Source: Emiliania huxleyi CCMP1516
Lineage: Eukaryota
DNA: 64,000 bases
Direction of reading: 5' to 3'
NCBI RefSeq assembly: GCF_000372725.1
Contig: NW_005201286.1
Location: 124,001-188,000 of the forward strand
In this document: piece by piece, positions 5,544 to 62,887 of the stretch
How positions within the stretch are numbered: position 1 is the stretch's first letter
Layout of the letters: each line of letters starts with the position of its first letter
Notes under the pieces: generated by a model
What the model saw: the letters and a program-made list of their open reading frames with translations, nothing else
The model's database searches: none
What the model was told of the DNA's origin: nothing
Position numbers and translations under genes: made by a program

Positions 5544-7228
5544 ATGTCCGACCTCGGAAAGCTGCCTGGCGTCGCCGAGGCGACCTCGACCACTGAGGAG
5601 CCCAAGCCGATGTACCACAGGGACCCTTCGGACTGGGACCGGCCTGCGGTCCCGGTCACCAAGGCGTACAAGAACGAGGCGTTCCTCTCCTCCTCGCACG
5701 CGCGGCACCTGCGCATCCTGTGCGAGTACGAGGAGACGATGCAGCGGCTCCGCGCCAACGGCATACGCGCCACAATAATGTTCTTCGGCTCCGCCCGCTC
5801 CAAGGACCGCGCTCAGTACGACGACGCCCTCGCCAAGAGCCGGAAGGCGGTGGCGGAGGCGCCCGACGGGTCAAGCGAGCAGGCGCTCGCACGCGGGACG
5901 CTCGAGCGGCTGCAAAAGTCAGAGTGGATGTGCGAGTACATGGAGAAGATCCGGCAGCTCGCGCAGCGCGTGACGGAGTGGTCGATCAAGACAAAGTACT
6001 CGCTCGCCAACCAGGTCTCGGGCGTCTCGCGCGCGACCACGGCGCGGCTGATCGAGGAGGGGCGCAAGTCGCCAGCCGGGGGGCGCAAGTCAGCCTACCT
6101 GCCGCACTCGACCGACGACGCCTACCCGCGCCCGGCGGACGCGCCCGGCATCTACGTGTGTACCGGTGGCGGGCCGGGCTTCATGGAGGCGGCCAACCGC
6201 GGCGCGCATGACGCGGGCGGCAAGTCGGTCGGGATGGGGATCACGCTGCCGTTCGAGACGGGGCTCAACCCGTACGTCACGCCGGAGCTGGCCTTCGAGT
6301 TCCACTACTTCTTCACGCGCAAGTTCTCGATGGCCTACCACATGCAGGCGCTCGTGGTTGCGCCCGGCGGCTTTGGCACCTTCGACGAGCTCTTCGAGCT
6401 GATGACGCTCAAGCAGACCGGCAAGATGCAGTCGGGGCTGCCGGTGGTGCTCTTCGGAAAGCAGTTCTGGCAGGAGGTGGTCAACTGGCAGGCGCCGCGC
6501 AGAGATGCGCAGAGATGCGCAGAGATGCGCAGAGATGCGCAGAGATGCGCAGAGATGCGCAGAGAGCTGGCGAGCCCTGCTTCCCTGTCGAAAGCCCTCG
6601 CCTCGCCTCTCGACCGAGGACTCGACGCAAAAGGAGGAGGTGCCGAGTTGAGTGCCCGTCAGGCGCTCGCCGTCGGAACATCTCGCAACCTCTCGCCATC
6701 TCTCGCCACCTCTCCCCACCTCTCCCCACCTCTCGCCACCTCTCGCCACCTCTCGCCACCTCTCGCCACCTCTCGCCGTATCTCGTCAGGCGCTCGCCGA
6801 CTCGGGCACCATCAACCAGCGCGACGTCGACGAGCTGCTCTTCACCGACGACGTGGACGAGGCCTTCGCGTTCCTGACCTCGCACCTGCAGGCCAAAAGA
6901 GAGAAGACACGTCGCGACGAGCCCCCCCCCCCCACCGAGGCTAGAGACAGGACCCACTTGTCACCGGCCGATGGGTCTGCCCCCCCGCCGCCACTCGCCC
7001 TGCCAAGGGAAGCACGCCGAGACCGCACACGCACGCACGCACACGTGCACCGGACGACCCTGCACCGTTCAATGCCACGGGGCGTGGAGACGCGCCGGCG
7101 CCGGCCGCACTAGCGTGGGGAGGAGGTTGGCTCACCGCACTGTCCTTCCCCCGCAGGCGACCTCGACGCCCCACTTTGCAGAGTGCGGGCTGCCGCCCGG
7201 CATGGACCTGAGGCACACGACTAGCTGA
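5544..7228 (+). CDS. LOG-family (TIGR00730-like) nucleotide phosphoribohydrolase; predicted exons 5544-6491, 6790-6891, 7157-7228
   Basis: FFGSAR, TGGGPGFMEAANRGA, FHYFFTRK and PGGFGTFDE motifs; two predicted GC-AG introns restore the frame. Confidence 0.9.
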
Positions 7229-12167: not shown

Positions 12168-12360
12168 CGCTCGTGGCAGTTTGGCGTGGCTGCCGACCCG
12201 AAGGCAGGATCTAGTCTTCCAACTCGTTGCAGGTTTGGCGTGGCTGCTTGTCTACAGCAGCTGGTCGGGAACCAGGAGGCCGCAGACCGCGGCGCCATTG
12301 TTTCTTTTTTCAACACTTACTGGCAGGTTTCTTTCCCCCTCGGTCAGACACGCCGTTGTA

Positions 12361-18582: not shown

Positions 18583-19692
18583 TCAGGCCTCGGCCTCCTG
18601 GCGCGCCGCCTCCTCGCCGCCTCCCTCGGCGCCCCGCGCCGGCGCACGACGCGGCTCAACCGTCGCCGCCTGCGCACCCTGCGCCTCACGCGGCGCCTCG
18701 GCGGTCCCTCGGCAGACCTCGCCTCCGTTGGCGCGCGCGAGCGCCTCTGCGACTAGTAGGTCCCAGTCGAGCCGCGAGAGGGCGAGGGCGAGGATGGCGC
18801 AGAGGAGGGCGTACCCGACCGCGACGCCGTAGTAGACGGCGCCGAGCGAGCGCCTCCAGTACACGACGAGCAGCGCGACCGCCGGCACCTGCCCCGCCCA
18901 CGACCCGACCAGGCCGGCGAGCAGCACCGCGCGCGTGCGGCCGGTCGCCATGAGCAGCCCCTCGAGCACGACGGCGAGGTTCATCGAGATTGTGGCGAGG
19001 CAGAGCCTAATCTCGGACGATCTCGAGTGCGCTCGGTGATCTCGGGCGATCTCGCCTCGGCGGCGAGGCAGGGCCCGAGGCGCGCGCGCACGAAGGCGTC
19101 GAGCACCGATGCGTCGGAGGAGAAGATGGCCGCGAGCGGGCGCGGCGCGGCCAGGATGAGAGCGGCGACGGCGGCGAGGGCGACGCACGCGAGGCCAAGG
19201 CCGGCAACGACGCAGCGGCGCGCGTCGTGCGGCCGCGAAGCGCCAAGGGCCTGCGCCACCTACGGTCCGGTCCGGCACACTTGTCCACACACACGAGGTA
19301 GGTGGGGCCGGGCGGCCCTCGCGACGCCACGTCTGAAAGGCAGGAGCCCCGCGCCATTCACAGTGCGAGGCTCTCTGCGCGTGGGTGAGCGGCGAGAGTG
19401 TGAGTGCGAGTGTGTTGTGTGTGTGTTGTGTGAGTGCGAGTGTGTTGTGTGAGTGAGTGAGTGAGTGTGAGTGTGTCTGTTGTGTGTGTGTGTGTCGTGT
19501 GTGTGTGTGTGTTGTGTTGTGTTGTGTTGTGTTGTGTTGTGTTGTGTTGTGTGTGTGTGTGTGTGTGTGTGTGTGAGTGCGAGTGTGTTGTGTGAGTGAG
19601 TGAGTGAGTGAGTGTGTCTGTTGTGTGTGTGTGTGTCGTGTGTGTGTGTGTGTTGTGTTGTGTTGTGTTGTGTTGTGTTCTGTTGTGTTGTG

Positions 19693-19753
<61 letters not shown>

Positions 19754-20931
19754 TGAGTGAGTGAGTGAGTGAGTGTGTGTGTCTTGTGCGCCACCTTTGA
19801 TCCCGACACCGCCGGTGAGCGAGCCAGGAAGTCTCCCCAGATCTCCCCAGATCTCCCCAGACCTCCCCCCTATCTCACCTTGATCCCGACTCCGCCGGTG
19901 AGCGAGCCAGTGAGCACGAGCGAGATCCACATCACGCGGTACGATGCGGTGAAGACGGCGAGATCGAGGGTGGAGAGCGACGCTGCGAACGCGCCGACCG
20001 CAGACATCCGCCAAAAGTCAGAGGCGATGGAGAGGGCGGCGGGGACGTACAGCTTCAGGTACTCGCGCACGCGGGATTTCGTGACAAAGGCCGGGGAGAC
20101 GCCGCACCAGCCGACTGCCTGGGGCCACCCCTGCCGCCCGTACCCGAGGCAGAGGCAAAAGAGGCCCGCAAGCGCGAGCAGCTGCAGCCACTCGACCGCA
20201 CTCGTCACGATCGGGCATGCCGGGAAGCCGTACCTGCGGAGGTGTGCGGAGGTGTGGGGAGGTGTGGGGAGAGGTGTGGGGAGGTGTGGCGCGAGGGAGC
20301 CGTACCCGCCGAAGCGCGACGGGCCGGTAGGTACGCCAAGGACAAGCAGGTAGCCGAGGAGCAGGTTGGCCGCGAGGCCGACGAGGGCGACGGCCGCGGC
20401 CGGCTTGACGATCCTCTGTGCCGAAAGGTACTGCTGCAGCTGCGAGAAGAGCACCCGCGCCGGGATGCAGGCCAGCAGCACGAGCGAAAAGTAGGAGGCG
20501 TCGGGGATCAGCGCGGCGTCCGCGCGAGTGAGGCGGAGCACGGGGCCCGTCGCCGCCCAGAGGCCCATCACGAAGCACGAAATCACGCCGAGCACCGCAA
20601 CGCTCACCTGCAGCCACTCGCCGGCGAGCTGCCACGGCGCGGTCCCCGCCTTTGCCGCGCCGACGGCGTTGCCGACAAATATGCCGAGGACGCGGCCCTG
20701 AATCAGTACACCCGAGGCCATGGTCCACAGGTCAGAGAGCGATGCCGCCGCAAGCGCGTGCGTGCCCACGTGCCCGAGGAGCGCCGTGTCTGTCACCTTC
20801 ATGCCGACCCACCCGAGCTGGCCGATGAACAGGGCAGGCGCCAGCGCGAGGATCCCGGCCGCCGTCTCTCGCCACGACGCCACGCGAGGCGGCGGCGACG
20901 GGTCGAGGAAGGGATCATGCTGGTTGTCCAT
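18583..20931 (-). CDS. MATE family transporter; predicted introns 20234-20305, 19260-19878, 19007-19074
   Basis: TDTALLGHVG...LAAASL, QQYLSAQRIVKP, YLKLYVPAAL, EGLLMATGRT; many TM helices; splicing gives a continuous frame. Confidence 0.88.
19385..19782. repeat. Compound microsatellite (GT)n/(GTGTT)n/(GAGT)n within MATE intron 2
   Basis: Directly visible. Confidence 0.95.
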
Positions 20932-22480: not shown

Positions 22481-25058
22481 ATGAGCAGCACGACGCACAC
22501 CGTCGCGGCGAGCGGCGGGCCGCAGGAGGTCCGCCTGGGCGAGGACGTGATGACGGTCCTGCCACTCGGCAGCGGCTGCGAGGTCGGCCGCTCTGCCGTC
22601 GTGGTCAAATTCAAGGGCTCGACCGTCATGTTTGACTGCGGCGTGCACCCGGGCCGCACCGGCTACGACGCGCTGCCCTTCTTCGACGAGATCGACCCGA
22701 CGGAGGTGGACCTGCTGCTGGTGACCCACTTCCACATGGACCACTGCGGCGCGCTCCCATTCTTCCTGCAAAAGACGGGCTTCGGCGGCCGCACCTTCAT
22801 GACGCACCCGACCAAGGCGGTGTGCAAGCTGCTGCTGCACGACTCGGTCAAGATCGGGCACGACGACGGCCGCATGTGGGACGAGGCCGACCTCGTCGCC
22901 GCCATGGACCGCATCGAGCTCATCAACTACCACCAGGCCGCCGTGCACTAGTGCCTCCCTTGGACACTCTGGTGGACACACCGTGGCGCCTCTTCGAGAC
23001 TCTGAACTCTCTCTCAGAGGCGGACACTAGTGCCACACTCGTAGGCACTCTGTGCGAGACGGCCGCCTGGGGGCACCGCCTCGGGTGCTGACTCCTAATC
23101 TAGCACCGACTCCAATGTAGCACCGACTCTGGCACAGATACGCAGGTGCTCTCGCACAAGTGCATCGGGAACCCTCCCCTACCAGCCCGGTACCCTACCC
23201 CCCCCTACCCCACCAGGTGCTCTCGCACAAGGGCATCCGGTTCTGGTGCTACAACGCGGGCCACGTGCTCGGCGCGGCTATGTTCATGATCGAGGTTGGT
23301 AATAATAATAATATAATAATAATAATAATAATAATAAGCGGCCATGTTCATGATCGAGGTTGGCGGCGTGCGCGTCCTCTACACCGGCGACTTCTCGCGC
23401 CAGCCCGACCGGCACCTGCTCGGCGACTTCCTAGACACTTCCGAGACACTTCGAACACTTCCGAGACACTTCCTAAACACTCCCTAGACACTTCCGAGAC
23501 ACTCCCGAGACACTTCAGAGACACTCCTGAGACACTTCCGAGACACTTCCGAGACACCCCCGAGACACCCCCGAGACACTTCCTAGCCCGGCCGCCGCTC
23601 GCTCGGCGTCGAGACGCCGACACATCCACCGCCCTTGCTTGGGCCGTCCGCGAACCCTGTCGGAACCTTCCTCCCGGTACCGTCCGGTCTGCGCACGTTC
23701 CGCGAACCTTCCGCGACCCTTCCGCGACCCTTCCGCGACCCTTCCGCGACCCTTCCGCGACCCTTCCGCGACCCTTCCGAGAACCTTCCGAGACCCTTCC
23801 GAGACCCTTCCGCGACCCTTCCGCGACCCTTCCCGCGGCAGGTGCCGAGACGCCGACGGACCCGCCGCATGTGCTCATCGTCGAGTCGACGTACGGGGTG
23901 TGCTGTCGCCTAGACACTTCCGAGACACTTCCTAGAGTCGACGTACGGGGTGTGCTGTCGCACGCGCGAGCTGCGAGAGCTGCGCTCGCCTAGGAGGTGT
24001 CTCGGAGGTGTCTCGGAAGTGTCTAGGTGATGTCGCACGAGCCGCGCGAGCTGCGAGAGCTGCGCTTCACCGCCGCCGTGCACGCGATCTTGCAGCGCGG
24101 TGGAAAGTGCCTCATCCCGGTCTTTGCGCTGGGGCGGTCGCAGGAGCTGCTGCTCATCCTCGACGCCTACTGGCGCGATCACCCCGAGCTGCACAAGGTG
24201 CCTCTGTACTATGCGTCTGGCATCGCCAAGCGCTGCATGCGCATCTACCAGACGTACATCAACATGATGAACGAGAACATCCGCGACGCACACGCGACGG
24301 GCCGCAACCCGTGGGAGTTTGAGTTTGTGCGCAACTTGCCCTCGTCTGCCCAGTTCAACGACTCGCAGCCGATGGTCGTGATGGCGTCGCCAGGCATGCT
24401 GCAGCAAGGCCTGTCTCGGGAGCTCTTTGAGCTTTGGTGCTCCGACCGGCGGAACGGGCTCGTAATGCCGGGCTACTCCGTCGTCGGCACGCTGGCCAAC
24501 CACCTCCTCTCCGAGCCAAAAGAGATCCAGACGAGCGGCGGCGACTGGGTCGCCGTCAACCTCACCATCACCTACGTGTCCTTCTCTGCGCACTCCGACT
24601 TTACGCAGACGTCCGAGTTCATCTCCGCCACGCGGCCACGCCACGTCATCCACGTGCACGGCGGCGAGGAGGAGATGAAGCGCCTCGCCCGCGCGCTCGC
24701 CAAGCAGTACAGCCCGAAGGAGGTCGAGTTCCTGACGCCTCAGAACTGCCAGCCCGTGCAGCTTCGCTTCCCGGGAGAGAAGATTGCGCGTGTCGTCGGC
24801 TCGCTGGCGGAGGAGGAGCCGTCGGACGGCGCGCCGCTCGAGGCGCTTCTCCTGCTCAAGGAGAACAAGTACACCCTGCTCGCCCCCGCGGACCTCCACA
24901 CGGCCACCGACCTCGCGACCACGCGGCTGCTGCAGCGGCCCCGCTTCCGGTTCGAGCGGCCGCCCGCCGCGCTCCTCTCGGCCGTCGGTCGTATCTTTGA
25001 GGTGGGGCCGCCGCAGCCAGCCCTGCTCCTCGCGGAGGGGGGAGGAGGCGGAGGTGGA

Positions 25059-26676: not shown

Positions 26677-26871
26677 CTGGCCTCACCCATATCTTACCCT
26701 CTGCCCCCCCTCCTGCTACCCCCCAGGCTAGATGGTCACAGATAGCCCCACACAGCCCCTTACCCCTTCACCCTCGCCTCGCTGGTGTTTCTGAACACGT
26801 AGACGACCACGCTGTGGGGGTTGTGTTATAGGAGTAGGAGAGTGGGGTGCAGGTTGCTCACCCACGGCACC

Positions 26872-27002
26872 GGGCCGGTGCTTGCACTTTGAATGCCGTG
26901 GGGCTCCTGCCCGTGTCCCGGGCGTGGAGATGCGAGGGTCGCCCCCCCTTGCCCCACCACTTTGTGTGTGTGGAGACGTTTACCTTACCTTACCTTACCT
27001 TA
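26872..27002 (+). mobile_element. Retroelement-like 3' module with (TTACC)n tail
   Basis: ~130 bp similar to the reverse complement of 32786-32916; both end in ttacc repeats. Confidence 0.7.
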
Positions 27003-32785: not shown

Positions 32786-32929
32786 AGGGTAAGGTAAGGT
32801 AAGGTAAGGTAAACTTCTCCACACACACACGAGGTGGTGGGGCAAGGGGGGGCAACCCTCGCGTCTCCACGTCTAACGACAGGAGCCCCACGGCATTTAA
32901 AGTGCAAGGCCCGGTGCGCGTGGGTGAGC

Positions 32930-32998
<69 letters not shown>
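32786..32998 (-). mobile_element. Second copy of the (TTACC)n-tailed module, preceded by a (CA)n microsatellite
   Basis: Reverse-complement similarity to 26872-27002; (GT)n at 32931-32998. Confidence 0.7.
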
Positions 32999-38620: not shown

Positions 38621-38720
38621 NNNNNNNNNNNNNNNNNNNNNNNNNNNNNNNNNNNNNNNNNNNNNNNNNNNNNNNNNNNNNNNNNNNNNNNNNNNNNNNN
38701 NNNNNNNNNNNNNNNNNNNN
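38621..38720. other. Assembly gap (100 N)
   Basis: Run of N. Confidence 1.
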
Positions 38721-40995: not shown

Positions 40996-41249
40996 CGTGT
41001 GGAGGGAAGTCTGGCGCGACGGCCGACGACGCAGTTTCGCACCACAAGCTACAGCAAGCTGGGTTCCAACTTTTGCGGGGTATGGTATGGTCCGATCGCG
41101 GCCCAAAGGGTGGGGGGGGGGGGGGGTATGGTCCTGACCGCCCAAGAGTAGCCCTCGACAGGGGTGGGGGGGTATGGTCCCTCGGCCTCTACTGCCGCCG
41201 CCCCCCCCCGAGCATCGTGTGTGGCGAAACGGGAAAATTCACGTGCCGA

Positions 41250-48360: not shown

Positions 48361-49103
48361 CAGAGCTGCGTCACTCATGTACGCGACGGCAACACGCCCC
48401 CAGCTCGCCGACGGCGAGAGAGATGCCACGAGGGGTCGCGGTGGCGTCCATCGCCAGGCTCCCTAGCTCAACCGACGACCCTCGTGCCTCGGGATCGACG
48501 GCCGATCGTCATTGTCTGTCGAGTACGCGACGGCAACACGCGAACGGGCATGCTCCGGGGCAGATGAATCGTGCGAGGGTGCATGCCACCACCCGCCACA
48601 CCGCTGCCTGTACCTCTTGCGCCCGTTGCCCCCCAAACCCATTGCAGCAGCACAGGCGAGATGCAGCGCGCAGCCCGTAATCTCATCCTGGACGCCTTGC
48701 TACAGGTGCGCTGACGGGCTGCGCGTGAGGCTGCGACCGAGAGGTCATCCTCACGCTCGACTTTGAGCCGAGCCCACCAGCCCTGTCCTGGGGTGTTGTA
48801 GTGATCTGGTGGGTAATATCAATCCGCTCCTGCTCGCGGGTTGGCCGGCTGCGCCAGCGGCGCAATCTCGGGGGACTTGTAGTACATCCCGAACTCGGCG
48901 ACATTGAGGCCCTCCGCGACCAGAAGGGTGTCGGCGAGTGGAGCGTGGAGCAGCTGCAGCAGCTCTCTCTGCGACACGGGCGCGTGCTCCTACCTCATGG
49001 CGCTGCGGGCTCGGCGGCAGTAGAGGGAGCGGCGATTCCCTGCGCTTTCCGACCAAACCCCGCAAAAAGTCCGAACCCAGAACTCTGGCCGCGCCGACAC
49101 TGC

Positions 49104-56374: not shown

Positions 56375-56872
56375 GAGGCGACGCTGTGCGAAGCCCGAAG
56401 CTCACATGCGGCTGAAACGCGCGAAGAGGAATTTTCCGAGCTCACTCACCGGGACTGGCGGTCTCGCAGGAAAAAGAATTTTAGGAAGCTAAGTCAGCTA
56501 GGCACGGTGGCGGCGTGCCGTCCTCCCATCCCTCCCTTGGGCTGTCTGTTTTCTTTCTTTCTTTCTTTTGACACTAGGCACGGGACTGGCGCGCACTGGC
56601 ACTAACACAGGTACACCACGGGAGCCGCCTAAGCGACTCCTGCGAGGACGGCGAGGCAATAAGGTCCGTGCACTCGACCGCCCTCGCCGCAGGCGGAGCT
56701 GCGGCGCCGAAAGGCGAAAGAAGCCGAGAGAACAAGGGAACGGCAGGCGGCGGCGGCGGCGCAGAACGAGGCAGAGGAGAGCGACGCGACAGAGGAAGAA
56801 GCGACAAGCGAGAGCACGACGAGAAGGGGGCGACCGCGAGGTGGCATGAAGGTTGCAGCGAGAAGCGGCGAG

Positions 56873-57002
56873 AGACTGCGAAGAGAGATAGGAAGAGGCA
56901 GACTCCCAAGGGTGGGCGACGGCTAGCGCACCACACCCCTCTCCTTAAAAACCCCTGTGTGGTGGCGGCGTGCCGTCCTCCCATCCCTCCCTTGGGTTGT
57001 CC
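56873..57002 (+). repeat. Repeat upstream of the retroelement ORF; partial direct copy at 56505-56546 and inverted copy at 63047-63197
   Basis: ggtggcggcgtgccgtcctcccatccc and gactgcgaagagagataggaagaggcagac are shared. Confidence 0.9.
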
Positions 57003-62439: not shown

Positions 62440-62887
62440 TTGGCCTGTCCGAGGGTTTCCTCTCGCACCCTACCTGGTTTCCTTTCCGTGTTTCCTGCTC
62501 GTTTCCCTACAACACCCTCTAGTTTCCTCGGGAAACCCCGGGGAAACTCCGTGGAATTCGTCATTTTGGGGGGGCTCTGAGCCGTGTCTGAGGCTGTTTT
62601 GGGGCCAAAATCGGCAAAATACCGGGTATTTTGCGGGTATACCTGGAAAACCCCGGTATACCTGGAAAATACCTGGGTATCGTGCCGATTTCCTCAATTT
62701 TGCCCCAGATTTTGCCCCAGACCAGCTCTCAGACTCAGGGAAACTCGCGAGTTTCCCGAGGGAAACTCGAGAGAAACAGAATGGAGCACCAAACACCCTC
62801 TGGTTTCCCTGGAAACTTCCGGAAACGCAAAGTGCTGGGGACCCTCTGGTTTCCCTCTGGGTTGCCGGAAACCCTCGGACAGGCCAA
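62440..62887. mobile_element. 448-bp hAT-like MITE with 21-bp perfect TIRs, 8-bp TSD and an internal ~150-bp palindromic segment
   Basis: TIRs ttggcctgtccgagggtttcc and ggaaaccctcggacaggccaa; tgagcgag at 62432-62439 and 62888-62895. Confidence 0.93.

What the first reader, a model, noticed from the sequence alone, without database searches (positions are those of the whole stretch)
19260..19878. MATE intron 2 also holds a ~40-bp copy of the spliced exon-exon junction
Seen on the minus strand: the spliced junction is ctggctcgctcaccggcggagtcgggatcaag|gtggcgca, and ctggctcgctcaccggcggtgtcgggatcaaaggtggcgca lies inside the intron (~19787-19827). It sits between a 10-nt (gagatctggg) array and a 400-bp compound microsatellite. 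This is an independent instance, in a different gene, of the pattern exon / repeat array / junction copy / repeat array / exon.
Basis: seen in the sequence. Interest (0 to 1): 0.7.

Follow-up and report, generated by a model that had tools for sequence, protein, structure and literature searches.

The report
Mobile-element-born intron with duplicated splice junction
An intron in a transporter gene of the alga Emiliania huxleyi holds a near-perfect copy of its own splice junction, most likely a by-product of two stacked DNA insertions: a small mobile-element-like repeat that probably created the intron, and a probably later repeat insertion that duplicated the exon end.

Summary
MATE intron 2 (19878-19260) holds a 41-nt copy matching the spliced junction at 39 of 41 columns. 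RNA contigs join exon 2 to exon 3 as read, and an independent metagenome contig carries the same copy, so it is neither exonic nor a misassembly.

The copy is most likely not one templated piece but two overlapping duplications. (1) The microsatellite plus the 130-nt tail is a dispersed repeat ((CA)n head, short-repeat tail) with two more copies in the window. It sits between 10-nt direct repeats containing AG|GT, and one other copy also has a 10-nt repeat. This is the signature of a transposon insertion that makes a precise intron. (2) A 48-nt 10-mer array was inserted with a 35-nt duplication of the exon end, giving today's donor.

All 8 modelled introns in three neighbouring genes carry flank duplications. 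In CPSF3 intron D the copy follows the DNA boundary, not the mRNA. The steps are known kinds; this element family and the density of such introns were not found in 10 literature searches. The scan earlier noted related cases on other DNA (mirage repeats; a telomere-repeat intron), but not this one.

The parts
19879..20233 (-). MATE exon 2; its last 32 nt plus the first 3 intron bases (19910-19876) are the template of the 35-nt duplication
19260..19878 (-). MATE intron 2, 619 nt, GT..AG, spliced from first donor to last acceptor in the RNA contigs seen
19828..19875 (-). 48-nt insert, mostly a 10-nt array (19832-19868); same family as the intron 1 array but in the opposite orientation
19792..19827 (-). 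Duplicate of the exon 2 end plus 3 nt (36 nt; one substitution, one extra A); the substituted site differs between alleles
   Evidence: third allele inferred from contig breaks
19787..19827 (-). The apparent 'junction copy' (41 nt): overlap of the 35-nt duplicate and the upstream 10-nt direct repeat
19787..19796 (-). Upstream copy of the 10-nt direct repeat (likely target-site duplication) containing AG|GT; inferred original donor at 19794
19262..19786 (-). Dispersed repeat element, 525 nt: expanded CA-rich head (19782-19398), about 125-nt body, degenerate 5-nt-unit tail; no terminal inverted repeats seen
19252..19261 (-). Downstream copy of the 10-nt direct repeat; supplies the acceptor AG and the first 8 nt of exon 3
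32790..32997 (-). Second copy of the element (B): (CA)34 head, body, (CCTTA)n tail, 10-nt direct repeats at 33007-32998 and 32789-32780
26856..27002 (+). Third copy of the element (A): body and (CCTTA)n tail, no CA head, no direct repeat found
20234..20305 (-). MATE intron 1: 10-nt array; its start repeats the next exon's start (10 of 11 nt)
19007..19074 (-). MATE intron 3 (GC..AG, from homologous proteins): degenerate 10-nt array; its start repeats the next exon's start (12 of 13 nt)
22937..24026 (+). CPSF3 introns A 22937-23216, B 23295-23358, C 23423-23841, D 23898-24026, all with duplicated flank sequence (comparison cases)
6492..6789 (+). Candidate intron of a LOG / lysine-decarboxylase-family gene with an internal copy of its own acceptor and next-exon start between two 10-nt arrays (comparison case)

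Best explanation
The junction copy is likely a by-product of two stacked DNA insertions, each of which duplicated its target site, and the intron is spliced from its first donor to its last acceptor in the RNA contigs seen. Step 1 (inferred): a SINE-like dispersed element ((CA)n head, about 125-nt body, short-repeat tail) inserted into uninterrupted coding sequence and duplicated 10 nt containing AG|GT. That gave a donor upstream and an acceptor downstream, so the insert is removed exactly: a new intron whose first 8 nt equal the next exon's first 8 nt. Step 2 (inferred): a 48-nt piece of the genome's common 10-mer repeat was inserted at that donor with a 35-nt duplication of the exon end, as staggered-break repair would leave. 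The upstream copy became today's donor; the old exon end and old donor were pushed into the intron, where together they read like the spliced junction. Shown: anatomy, both direct repeats, the other element copies, the splice product, presence in another allele. Inferred: the insertion events, their order, the retroposon nature of the element, and lack of function.
For: Element: the intron's 3' 130 nt match two other window loci (100 of 130 and 93 of 129 identical; those two match each other at 118 of 133). The MATE copy and copy B each sit exactly between 10-nt direct repeats; 26 of 20,000 random position pairs gave a repeat that long at two fixed ends. Removing the element plus one repeat, then the 84-nt first module, gives exactly the spliced sequence. 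This is the transposon-into-AGGT route (PMC3443670, section read), and a second staggered insertion is a class described in Daphnia (PMC4202315, section read). Neighbours: all 8 modelled introns in MATE, CPSF3 and the LOG-family gene repeat flanking sequence; 5 with unanchored p of 0.0015 or less, LOG 0.026, and MATE 1 and 3 only in the anchored test (p 0.0004 and below 0.0001). CPSF3 D holds an exact 27-nt duplicate of exon end plus intron start, with a run of 12 nt matching the intron start against 3 matching the next exon; CPSF3 C and LOG lean the same way, weakly. The copy looks unconstrained: T in the window, C in L001, A inferred in X1 and X3 from contig breaks; the extra A puts a retained copy out of frame except from one alternative acceptor.
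Against: No empty-site or element-only allele was found. Genomic homologues without the intron at this site (L004, L005, L007) are only 44-46% identical, and the closer uninterrupted ones (L002, L003) may be transcripts. The reverse order of the two steps gives the same sequence; only relative divergence favours element first. MATE alone cannot tell a DNA template from an RNA template. The element rests on 3 copies in 64 kb: copy A has no direct repeat and no CA head, no partner reverse-transcriptase gene was found among 13 ORFs scanned, and Rfam gave nothing near a gathering score for copy B. One base at a repeat edge is ambiguous, so the duplication may be 9 nt. CPSF3 and LOG boundaries come from protein homology or an open frame, not RNA.
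Confidence: 0.75

Rival explanations
1. Same origin, but the copy works: the intron would be removed in two steps (recursive splicing). The 84-nt first module is itself GT..AG, and its removal would regenerate the old AG|GT donor for the second step.
For: The internal AG|GT is in register and removal of module 1 is exact. The extra A keeps the AG in both full alleles seen. CPSF3 A and the LOG intron also have internal AG|G sites. E. huxleyi acceptors can be purine-rich exon copies (CPSF3 B).
Against: CPSF3 C and D have the same layout with no AG before the internal site, so the layout does not require it. An AG|G here follows from the duplication anyway. The three joined contigs seen (X10, X12, X6) all use the first donor and last acceptor, which fits both routes.
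Confidence: 0.12
2. One complex repair event in an intronless allele would have stitched in the array, a templated copy of the local sequence and the element together (template-switching or polymerase-theta-type insertion).
For: The copy equals the intronless sequence across the junction. The 10-mer array matches the intron 1 array 350 nt away in reverse orientation, and the two arrays of CPSF3 D are near reverse complements of each other, as local templating would give.
Against: The element has its own 10-nt repeat like copy B elsewhere. The element is 23-28% diverged from its relatives while the 35-nt duplicate has 2 changes. CPSF3 D shares derived changes between intron start and copy, which implies time between two events. 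The 10-mer family is abundant (2,035 contigs of X1 laid on this stretch, by depth mostly on the arrays), so local templating is not needed.
Confidence: 0.08
3. The copy would be captured from spliced mRNA or its cDNA during break repair or retroposition.
For: It matches the spliced junction at 39 of 41 columns, and a retroposon-like element lies directly beside it.
Against: Only 8 nt come from exon 3, and these are accounted for by the direct repeat. None of the 5 compound introns favours the mRNA where DNA and mRNA differ, and CPSF3 D clearly favours DNA.
Confidence: 0.04
4. Assembly artefact or wrong splice sites.
For: Repeat-rich region; microsatellite length differs between the window and L001 (intron 619 against 456 nt).
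Against: An independent contig spans the intron with the copy; X3 holds it without gaps; RNA contigs and the P0002 protein confirm the junction.
Confidence: 0.01

Closest known systems
Intron gain by transposon insertion into an AGGT protosplice site (Yenerall and Zhou 2012, PMC3443670; section on transposon insertion and passages read)
   Same: A dispersed element flanked by a duplicated target containing AG|GT; removal is exact and leaves the protein unchanged.
   Different: Here a second insertion has moved the donor 84 nt upstream and left the first donor inside the intron as a junction look-alike. The element looks like a retroposon, without terminal inverted repeats.
Daphnia pulex new introns, 'staggered-then-staggered' class (Li et al. 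2014, PMC4202315; abstract, passages and section 19 read)
   Same: Introns with direct repeats of adjacent exon sequence; serial insertions that build compound introns.
   Different: Daphnia exon-shared repeats are 4-12 bp and the inserts mostly of unknown source. Here duplications reach about 35 nt (about 40 nt of next-exon sequence in CPSF3 D) and the inserts are 10-11-nt arrays or an identifiable element.
Introners (Gozashti et al., 10.1101/2022.06.06.494994, passages; review PMC11282704, passages)
   Same: Element-derived intron whose splice site is co-opted from a target-site duplication. Chrysochromulina sp. introners are reported with 4-bp duplications and no inverted repeats.
   Different: Introners are families of many similar introns, mostly DNA transposons. 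Here one intronic copy is known, the duplication is 9-10 nt, and the element has a simple-repeat head and tail. The word Emiliania occurs 0 times in the main texts of both Gozashti papers; their supplements were not seen.
SINE-like non-LTR retroposons with short-repeat 3' tails (general knowledge, recalled)
   Same: Short non-coding element, tandem-repeat tail, target-site duplication, no inverted repeats.
   Different: No tRNA-like or Rfam-matching head (the head is a CA repeat) and no partner LINE identified.
'Mirage' minisatellites and F7-type junction VNTRs
   Same: Exon-edge sequence with a splice signal copied into the intron; the normal site is the one used.
   Different: Those are head-to-tail arrays of the boundary itself. 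This is a single copy set off by an unrelated array.

Membership tests
Transposon-derived intron (protosplice-site insertion) | Insert is a dispersed repeated element | tested here: met
   3 full-body copies in the window, 72-89% identical
Transposon-derived intron (protosplice-site insertion) | Target-site duplication containing AG|GT at both ends | tested here: met
   10-nt repeat at 19796-19787 and 19261-19252; 26 of 20,000 by chance
Transposon-derived intron (protosplice-site insertion) | Exact removal restores the coding sequence and is seen in RNA | tested here: met
   the acceptor is the one used, while the donor used now is the one made by the other insertion
Transposon-derived intron (protosplice-site insertion) | Empty site in a close relative or allele | tested here: inconclusive
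   Only 44-46% identical genomic homologues lack it; closer ones may be transcripts
SINE / non-LTR retroposon | 3' simple-repeat tail, target-site duplication, no terminal inverted repeats | tested here: met
   Tail in 3 of 3 copies (degenerate in MATE), duplication in 2 of 3, no inverted repeats in the 2 copies checked
SINE / non-LTR retroposon | Head derived from a polymerase III RNA (tRNA, 7SL, 5S) | tested here: not met
   Head is (CA)n; Rfam on copy B gave 5 matches, all far below gathering score and outside the element body
SINE / non-LTR retroposon | Autonomous LINE partner sharing the 3' end | not testable with these tools
   No genome held; 13 window ORFs scanned, none with a reverse transcriptase family
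Introner family | Many sequence-similar introns at unrelated sites | not testable with these tools
   Only the MATE copy is shown to be intronic; no gene models were built around copies A and B
Recursive splice site | Internal AG|GT that regenerates a donor | tested here: met
   19796-19793; the 84-nt module is removable in register
Recursive splice site | Splicing intermediate or lariat at that site | not testable with these tools
   Only assembled contigs were available; they drop rare forms
Mirage minisatellite | Head-to-tail tandem copies of the exon-intron boundary | tested here: not met
   One copy only; the tandem units are unrelated to the boundary
mRNA-templated insertion | Copy follows the mRNA where mRNA and DNA boundary differ | tested here: not met
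   CPSF3 D follows DNA (12 against 3 nt); C and LOG lean to DNA; MATE and CPSF3 A are uninformative

The most novel reading that the evidence does not exclude
Emiliania and other haptophytes build and rebuild introns on a large scale by inserting simple-repeat DNA (10-11-nt arrays, telomere-like arrays, or a SINE-like element) with long target-site duplications. Insertions strike existing splice sites again and again, renewing donors and acceptors and leaving fossil junctions that record the order of events. The CA-headed element would be an undescribed retroposon-type intron maker.
Probability: 0.35. Interest if true: 0.75.

Novelty: new variant of a known kind. Interest (0 to 1): 0.5.

Why it matters
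The source of most newly gained introns is still unknown. Here the source of one intron is visible, a small repeat element with its duplicated target still in place, and a second event that replaced its donor can be read from the sequence. All eight modelled introns nearby carry the same kind of scar, and a related haptophyte shows it with telomere-like arrays. A species complex with many sequenced strains would let the mechanism be tested by counting empty, single-step and two-step alleles. The junction copy itself is probably functionless.

Tried and rejected
RNA cover over the copy: bin 19783-19823 had depth 0 in X10 and X12; contigs drop rare forms, so this is no evidence of absence. X2 and X4 gave only the exon-side contig and none over the copy; low depth and record filters make that uninformative about a copy-less allele. 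X1 had no contig left of 19798. Cassette exon: of 3 AG sites in the first module only one (48 nt) keeps the frame, and it reads the copy out of its original frame; rejected as a likely product. The whole microsatellite could not be examined with reads, so the 619 against 456 nt difference may be allelic or an assembly collapse. Folding of the element body: z -2.35, -1.75 and -0.41 with differing structures, so no conserved fold is claimed. A weak fourth nhmmer match at 39434-39397 (E 0.004) was not counted. Copy A: the longest upstream match to its right flank was 6 nt. Two array-less candidate introns in an ankyrin gene (13040-12970, 12700-12629; no homology or RNA support) show no flank duplication (scores 17 and 12); the first was mis-placed by one base, and the LOG intron by one base; both were corrected later. 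Literature: 10 searches and passages of PMC2784329, PMC4028052, PMC10290126, 10.1101/2024.05.26.595999, PMC12480563, PMC11347835, PMC8775090 and PMC12130899 gave no description of these duplications or this element in haptophytes. The 2013 E. huxleyi genome paper is not held; I recall that it reports 10-11-bp repeats enriched in introns. Its supplement, repeat libraries and introner supplements were not seen and may list the element. Scan notes by place and by sequence returned nothing.

Full report
Host and gene. The window is from Emiliania (Gephyrocapsa) huxleyi or a very close relative: exon 1 is 100% identical to EMIHUDRAFT_440504, and the E. huxleyi protein P0002 covers the whole query. 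No whole genome was held. A four-exon model on the minus strand gives a 529-aa MATE protein (Pfam MatE on P0002). GC donors and retained introns are common in this species (PMC4028052, abstract and passages), which fits the GC donor of intron 3 and its retention in P0002.

Observation. The 41-nt copy at 19827-19787 matches the spliced junction at 39 of 41 columns and lies between a 10-nt array and a 385-nt microsatellite. Of 24,930 window 90-mers, the 66 that scored 40 or more against the intron all came from two regions explained below. Contigs of two RNA studies, and of run X6 whose kind is not on record, join exon 2 to exon 3. The copy is in other DNA: L001 spans the whole intron (456 nt, shorter microsatellite, 3 differences in 1,053 nt of exon 1 to exon 2, none in the last 138 nt of the intron), and X3 covers 19771-19826 in one contig.

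The second half of the intron is a dispersed element. The high null scores came from 26856-27002 (+) and 32790-32997 (-). Both align with the 130 nt between the microsatellite and the acceptor (100 of 130 and 93 of 129 identical) and both end in (CCTTA)n. Copy B starts with (CA)34, as the MATE copy starts with its expanded CA tract. nhmmer finds these three copies, the L001 allele and one weak partial match. The MATE copy lies exactly between 10-nt direct repeats, and so does copy B with a different 10-mer; random position pairs give this 26 times in 20,000. The MATE repeat contains AG|GT. Insertion of an element into AGGT with duplication of the target makes a precisely removable intron (PMC3443670, section read). 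It also makes the first 8 nt of that intron equal to the first 8 nt of the next exon, which is the exon-3 half of the 'junction copy'. A simple-repeat tail, target duplication and no inverted ends are what a SINE-like retroposon shows (recalled), but there is no polymerase III-type head and no partner was found. So it looks like a retroposon insertion but is not filed as a SINE.

The first 84 nt are a second insertion. The last 32 nt of exon 2 plus 3 nt are repeated 83 nt downstream with one substitution and one extra A, with a 48-nt array insert between. This is the same layout as the whole of CPSF3 intron B (26-nt duplication around a TAA repeat). Taking out the element with one direct repeat and then this module restores the spliced sequence exactly. 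The donor used today reads GTGAGA and the stranded one GTGGCG; the first is closer to the usual donor consensus (recalled), so the second insertion may have improved splicing. That is speculation. The order is inferred from divergence only: element 23-28% from its relatives, duplicate 2 changes in 35 nt.

The neighbours test the template. I modelled 8 introns: MATE 1-3, CPSF3 A-D (best GT/GC..AG choice against P0122 and P0123) and one in a LOG-family gene (open frame and Pfam domain only). All 8 repeat flanking sequence. MATE 2 and CPSF3 A-D have unanchored p of 0.0015 or less, LOG 0.026, and MATE 1 and 3 are significant only when anchored at the intron start. Five are compound with an internal copy. 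In CPSF3 D the copy is an exact 27-nt duplicate of exon end plus intron start and carries changes absent from the next exon (run of 12 against 3). CPSF3 C shares the GC-donor variant with the intron start (3 against 1) although it matches the next exon at 14 of 16. The LOG copy extends into the intron's own acceptor (6 against 3). CPSF3 A and MATE are uninformative. None favours an mRNA template.

Function. The substituted site in the copy is T in the window and C in L001. In X1 and X3 contigs break exactly as expected if copy and exon share a 31-mer, which implies A there (inferred, not read directly). Such variation and the frame-breaking A argue against a coding role. Recursive splicing stays open because the first module is GT..AG in register, but CPSF3 C and D have no such AG and contigs cannot show intermediates.

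Relatives. Twelve loci were returned from 202 pattern matches. The genomic haptophyte-like homologues L010 and L011 lack MATE intron 1 but do not reach the intron 2 site; the genomic homologues that lack intron 2 are only 44-46% identical. L011 has an intron at another site that starts with 12 nt of the next exon's start (judged from L003 and L010; the contig ends 7 nt after the AG), followed by telomere-like arrays in both orientations, and L010 has no intron there. The repeat-plus-duplication route may therefore be wider than Emiliania; this rests on one case.

Known and new. Transposon-made introns, introners with co-opted target duplications and serial staggered insertions in Daphnia introns cover each step. 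Direct repeats near splice sites are reported broadly (PMC11782384, abstract only), and in Drosophila repeats of 5 bp or more flank old and new introns equally (PMC3443670, passage), so short repeats alone prove little; the ones here are longer and were tested against nulls. Ten searches and the passages listed under Tried and rejected gave no account of this element or of long flank duplications in haptophyte introns; the 2013 genome paper and relevant supplements could not be seen. Verdict: real, most likely a functionless composite of two duplications, and a new variant of known intron-gain routes. Interest 0.5, carried by the identifiable source element and the density of such scars, not by the junction copy.

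Noticed in passing
window 26856-27002 (+), 32790-32997 (-), 19786-19262 (-): A short dispersed element with CA-repeat head, about 125-nt body and (CCTTA)n tail; two of three copies have 10-nt direct repeats. No description found.
   Followed up: yes
L011:1056-1129: In a related haptophyte-like MATE gene an intron starts with a 12-nt copy of the next exon's start, followed by telomere-like arrays in both orientations; L010 lacks the intron at that site.
   Followed up: partly
window 23898-24026 and 23423-23586: The two 11-nt arrays of CPSF3 intron D are near reverse complements of each other and of the same family as the first array of intron C, about 400 nt upstream, hinting at local templating.
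   Followed up: partly
table 5c (contigs of X1, X3, X10, X12 laid on 19830-19871): Contigs from other loci show the same 10-nt array on both sides of 10-37 unique letters, 4 of the 12 rows shown starting with CAG-G; these may be further internal acceptor copies or micro-exons.
   Followed up: no
window 20234-20305: MATE intron 1 is 72 nt, in frame and without a stop, yet is spliced in both RNA runs; it is absent from genomic homologues L010 and L011.
   Followed up: partly
L003:745-816 and L011:915-992: A roughly 24-nt coding segment is repeated three times in tandem just upstream of the position of MATE intron 1 in a related species.
   Followed up: no
window 12179-12247, 41120-41180, 48379-48541, 56506-56996, 62795-62856: Further local direct repeats of 15-36 nt with unrelated sequence between them, outside the modelled genes; possibly more insertions with duplicated targets.
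   Followed up: no
window 38621-38720: A 100-N assembly gap, 19 kb from the finding.
   Followed up: no
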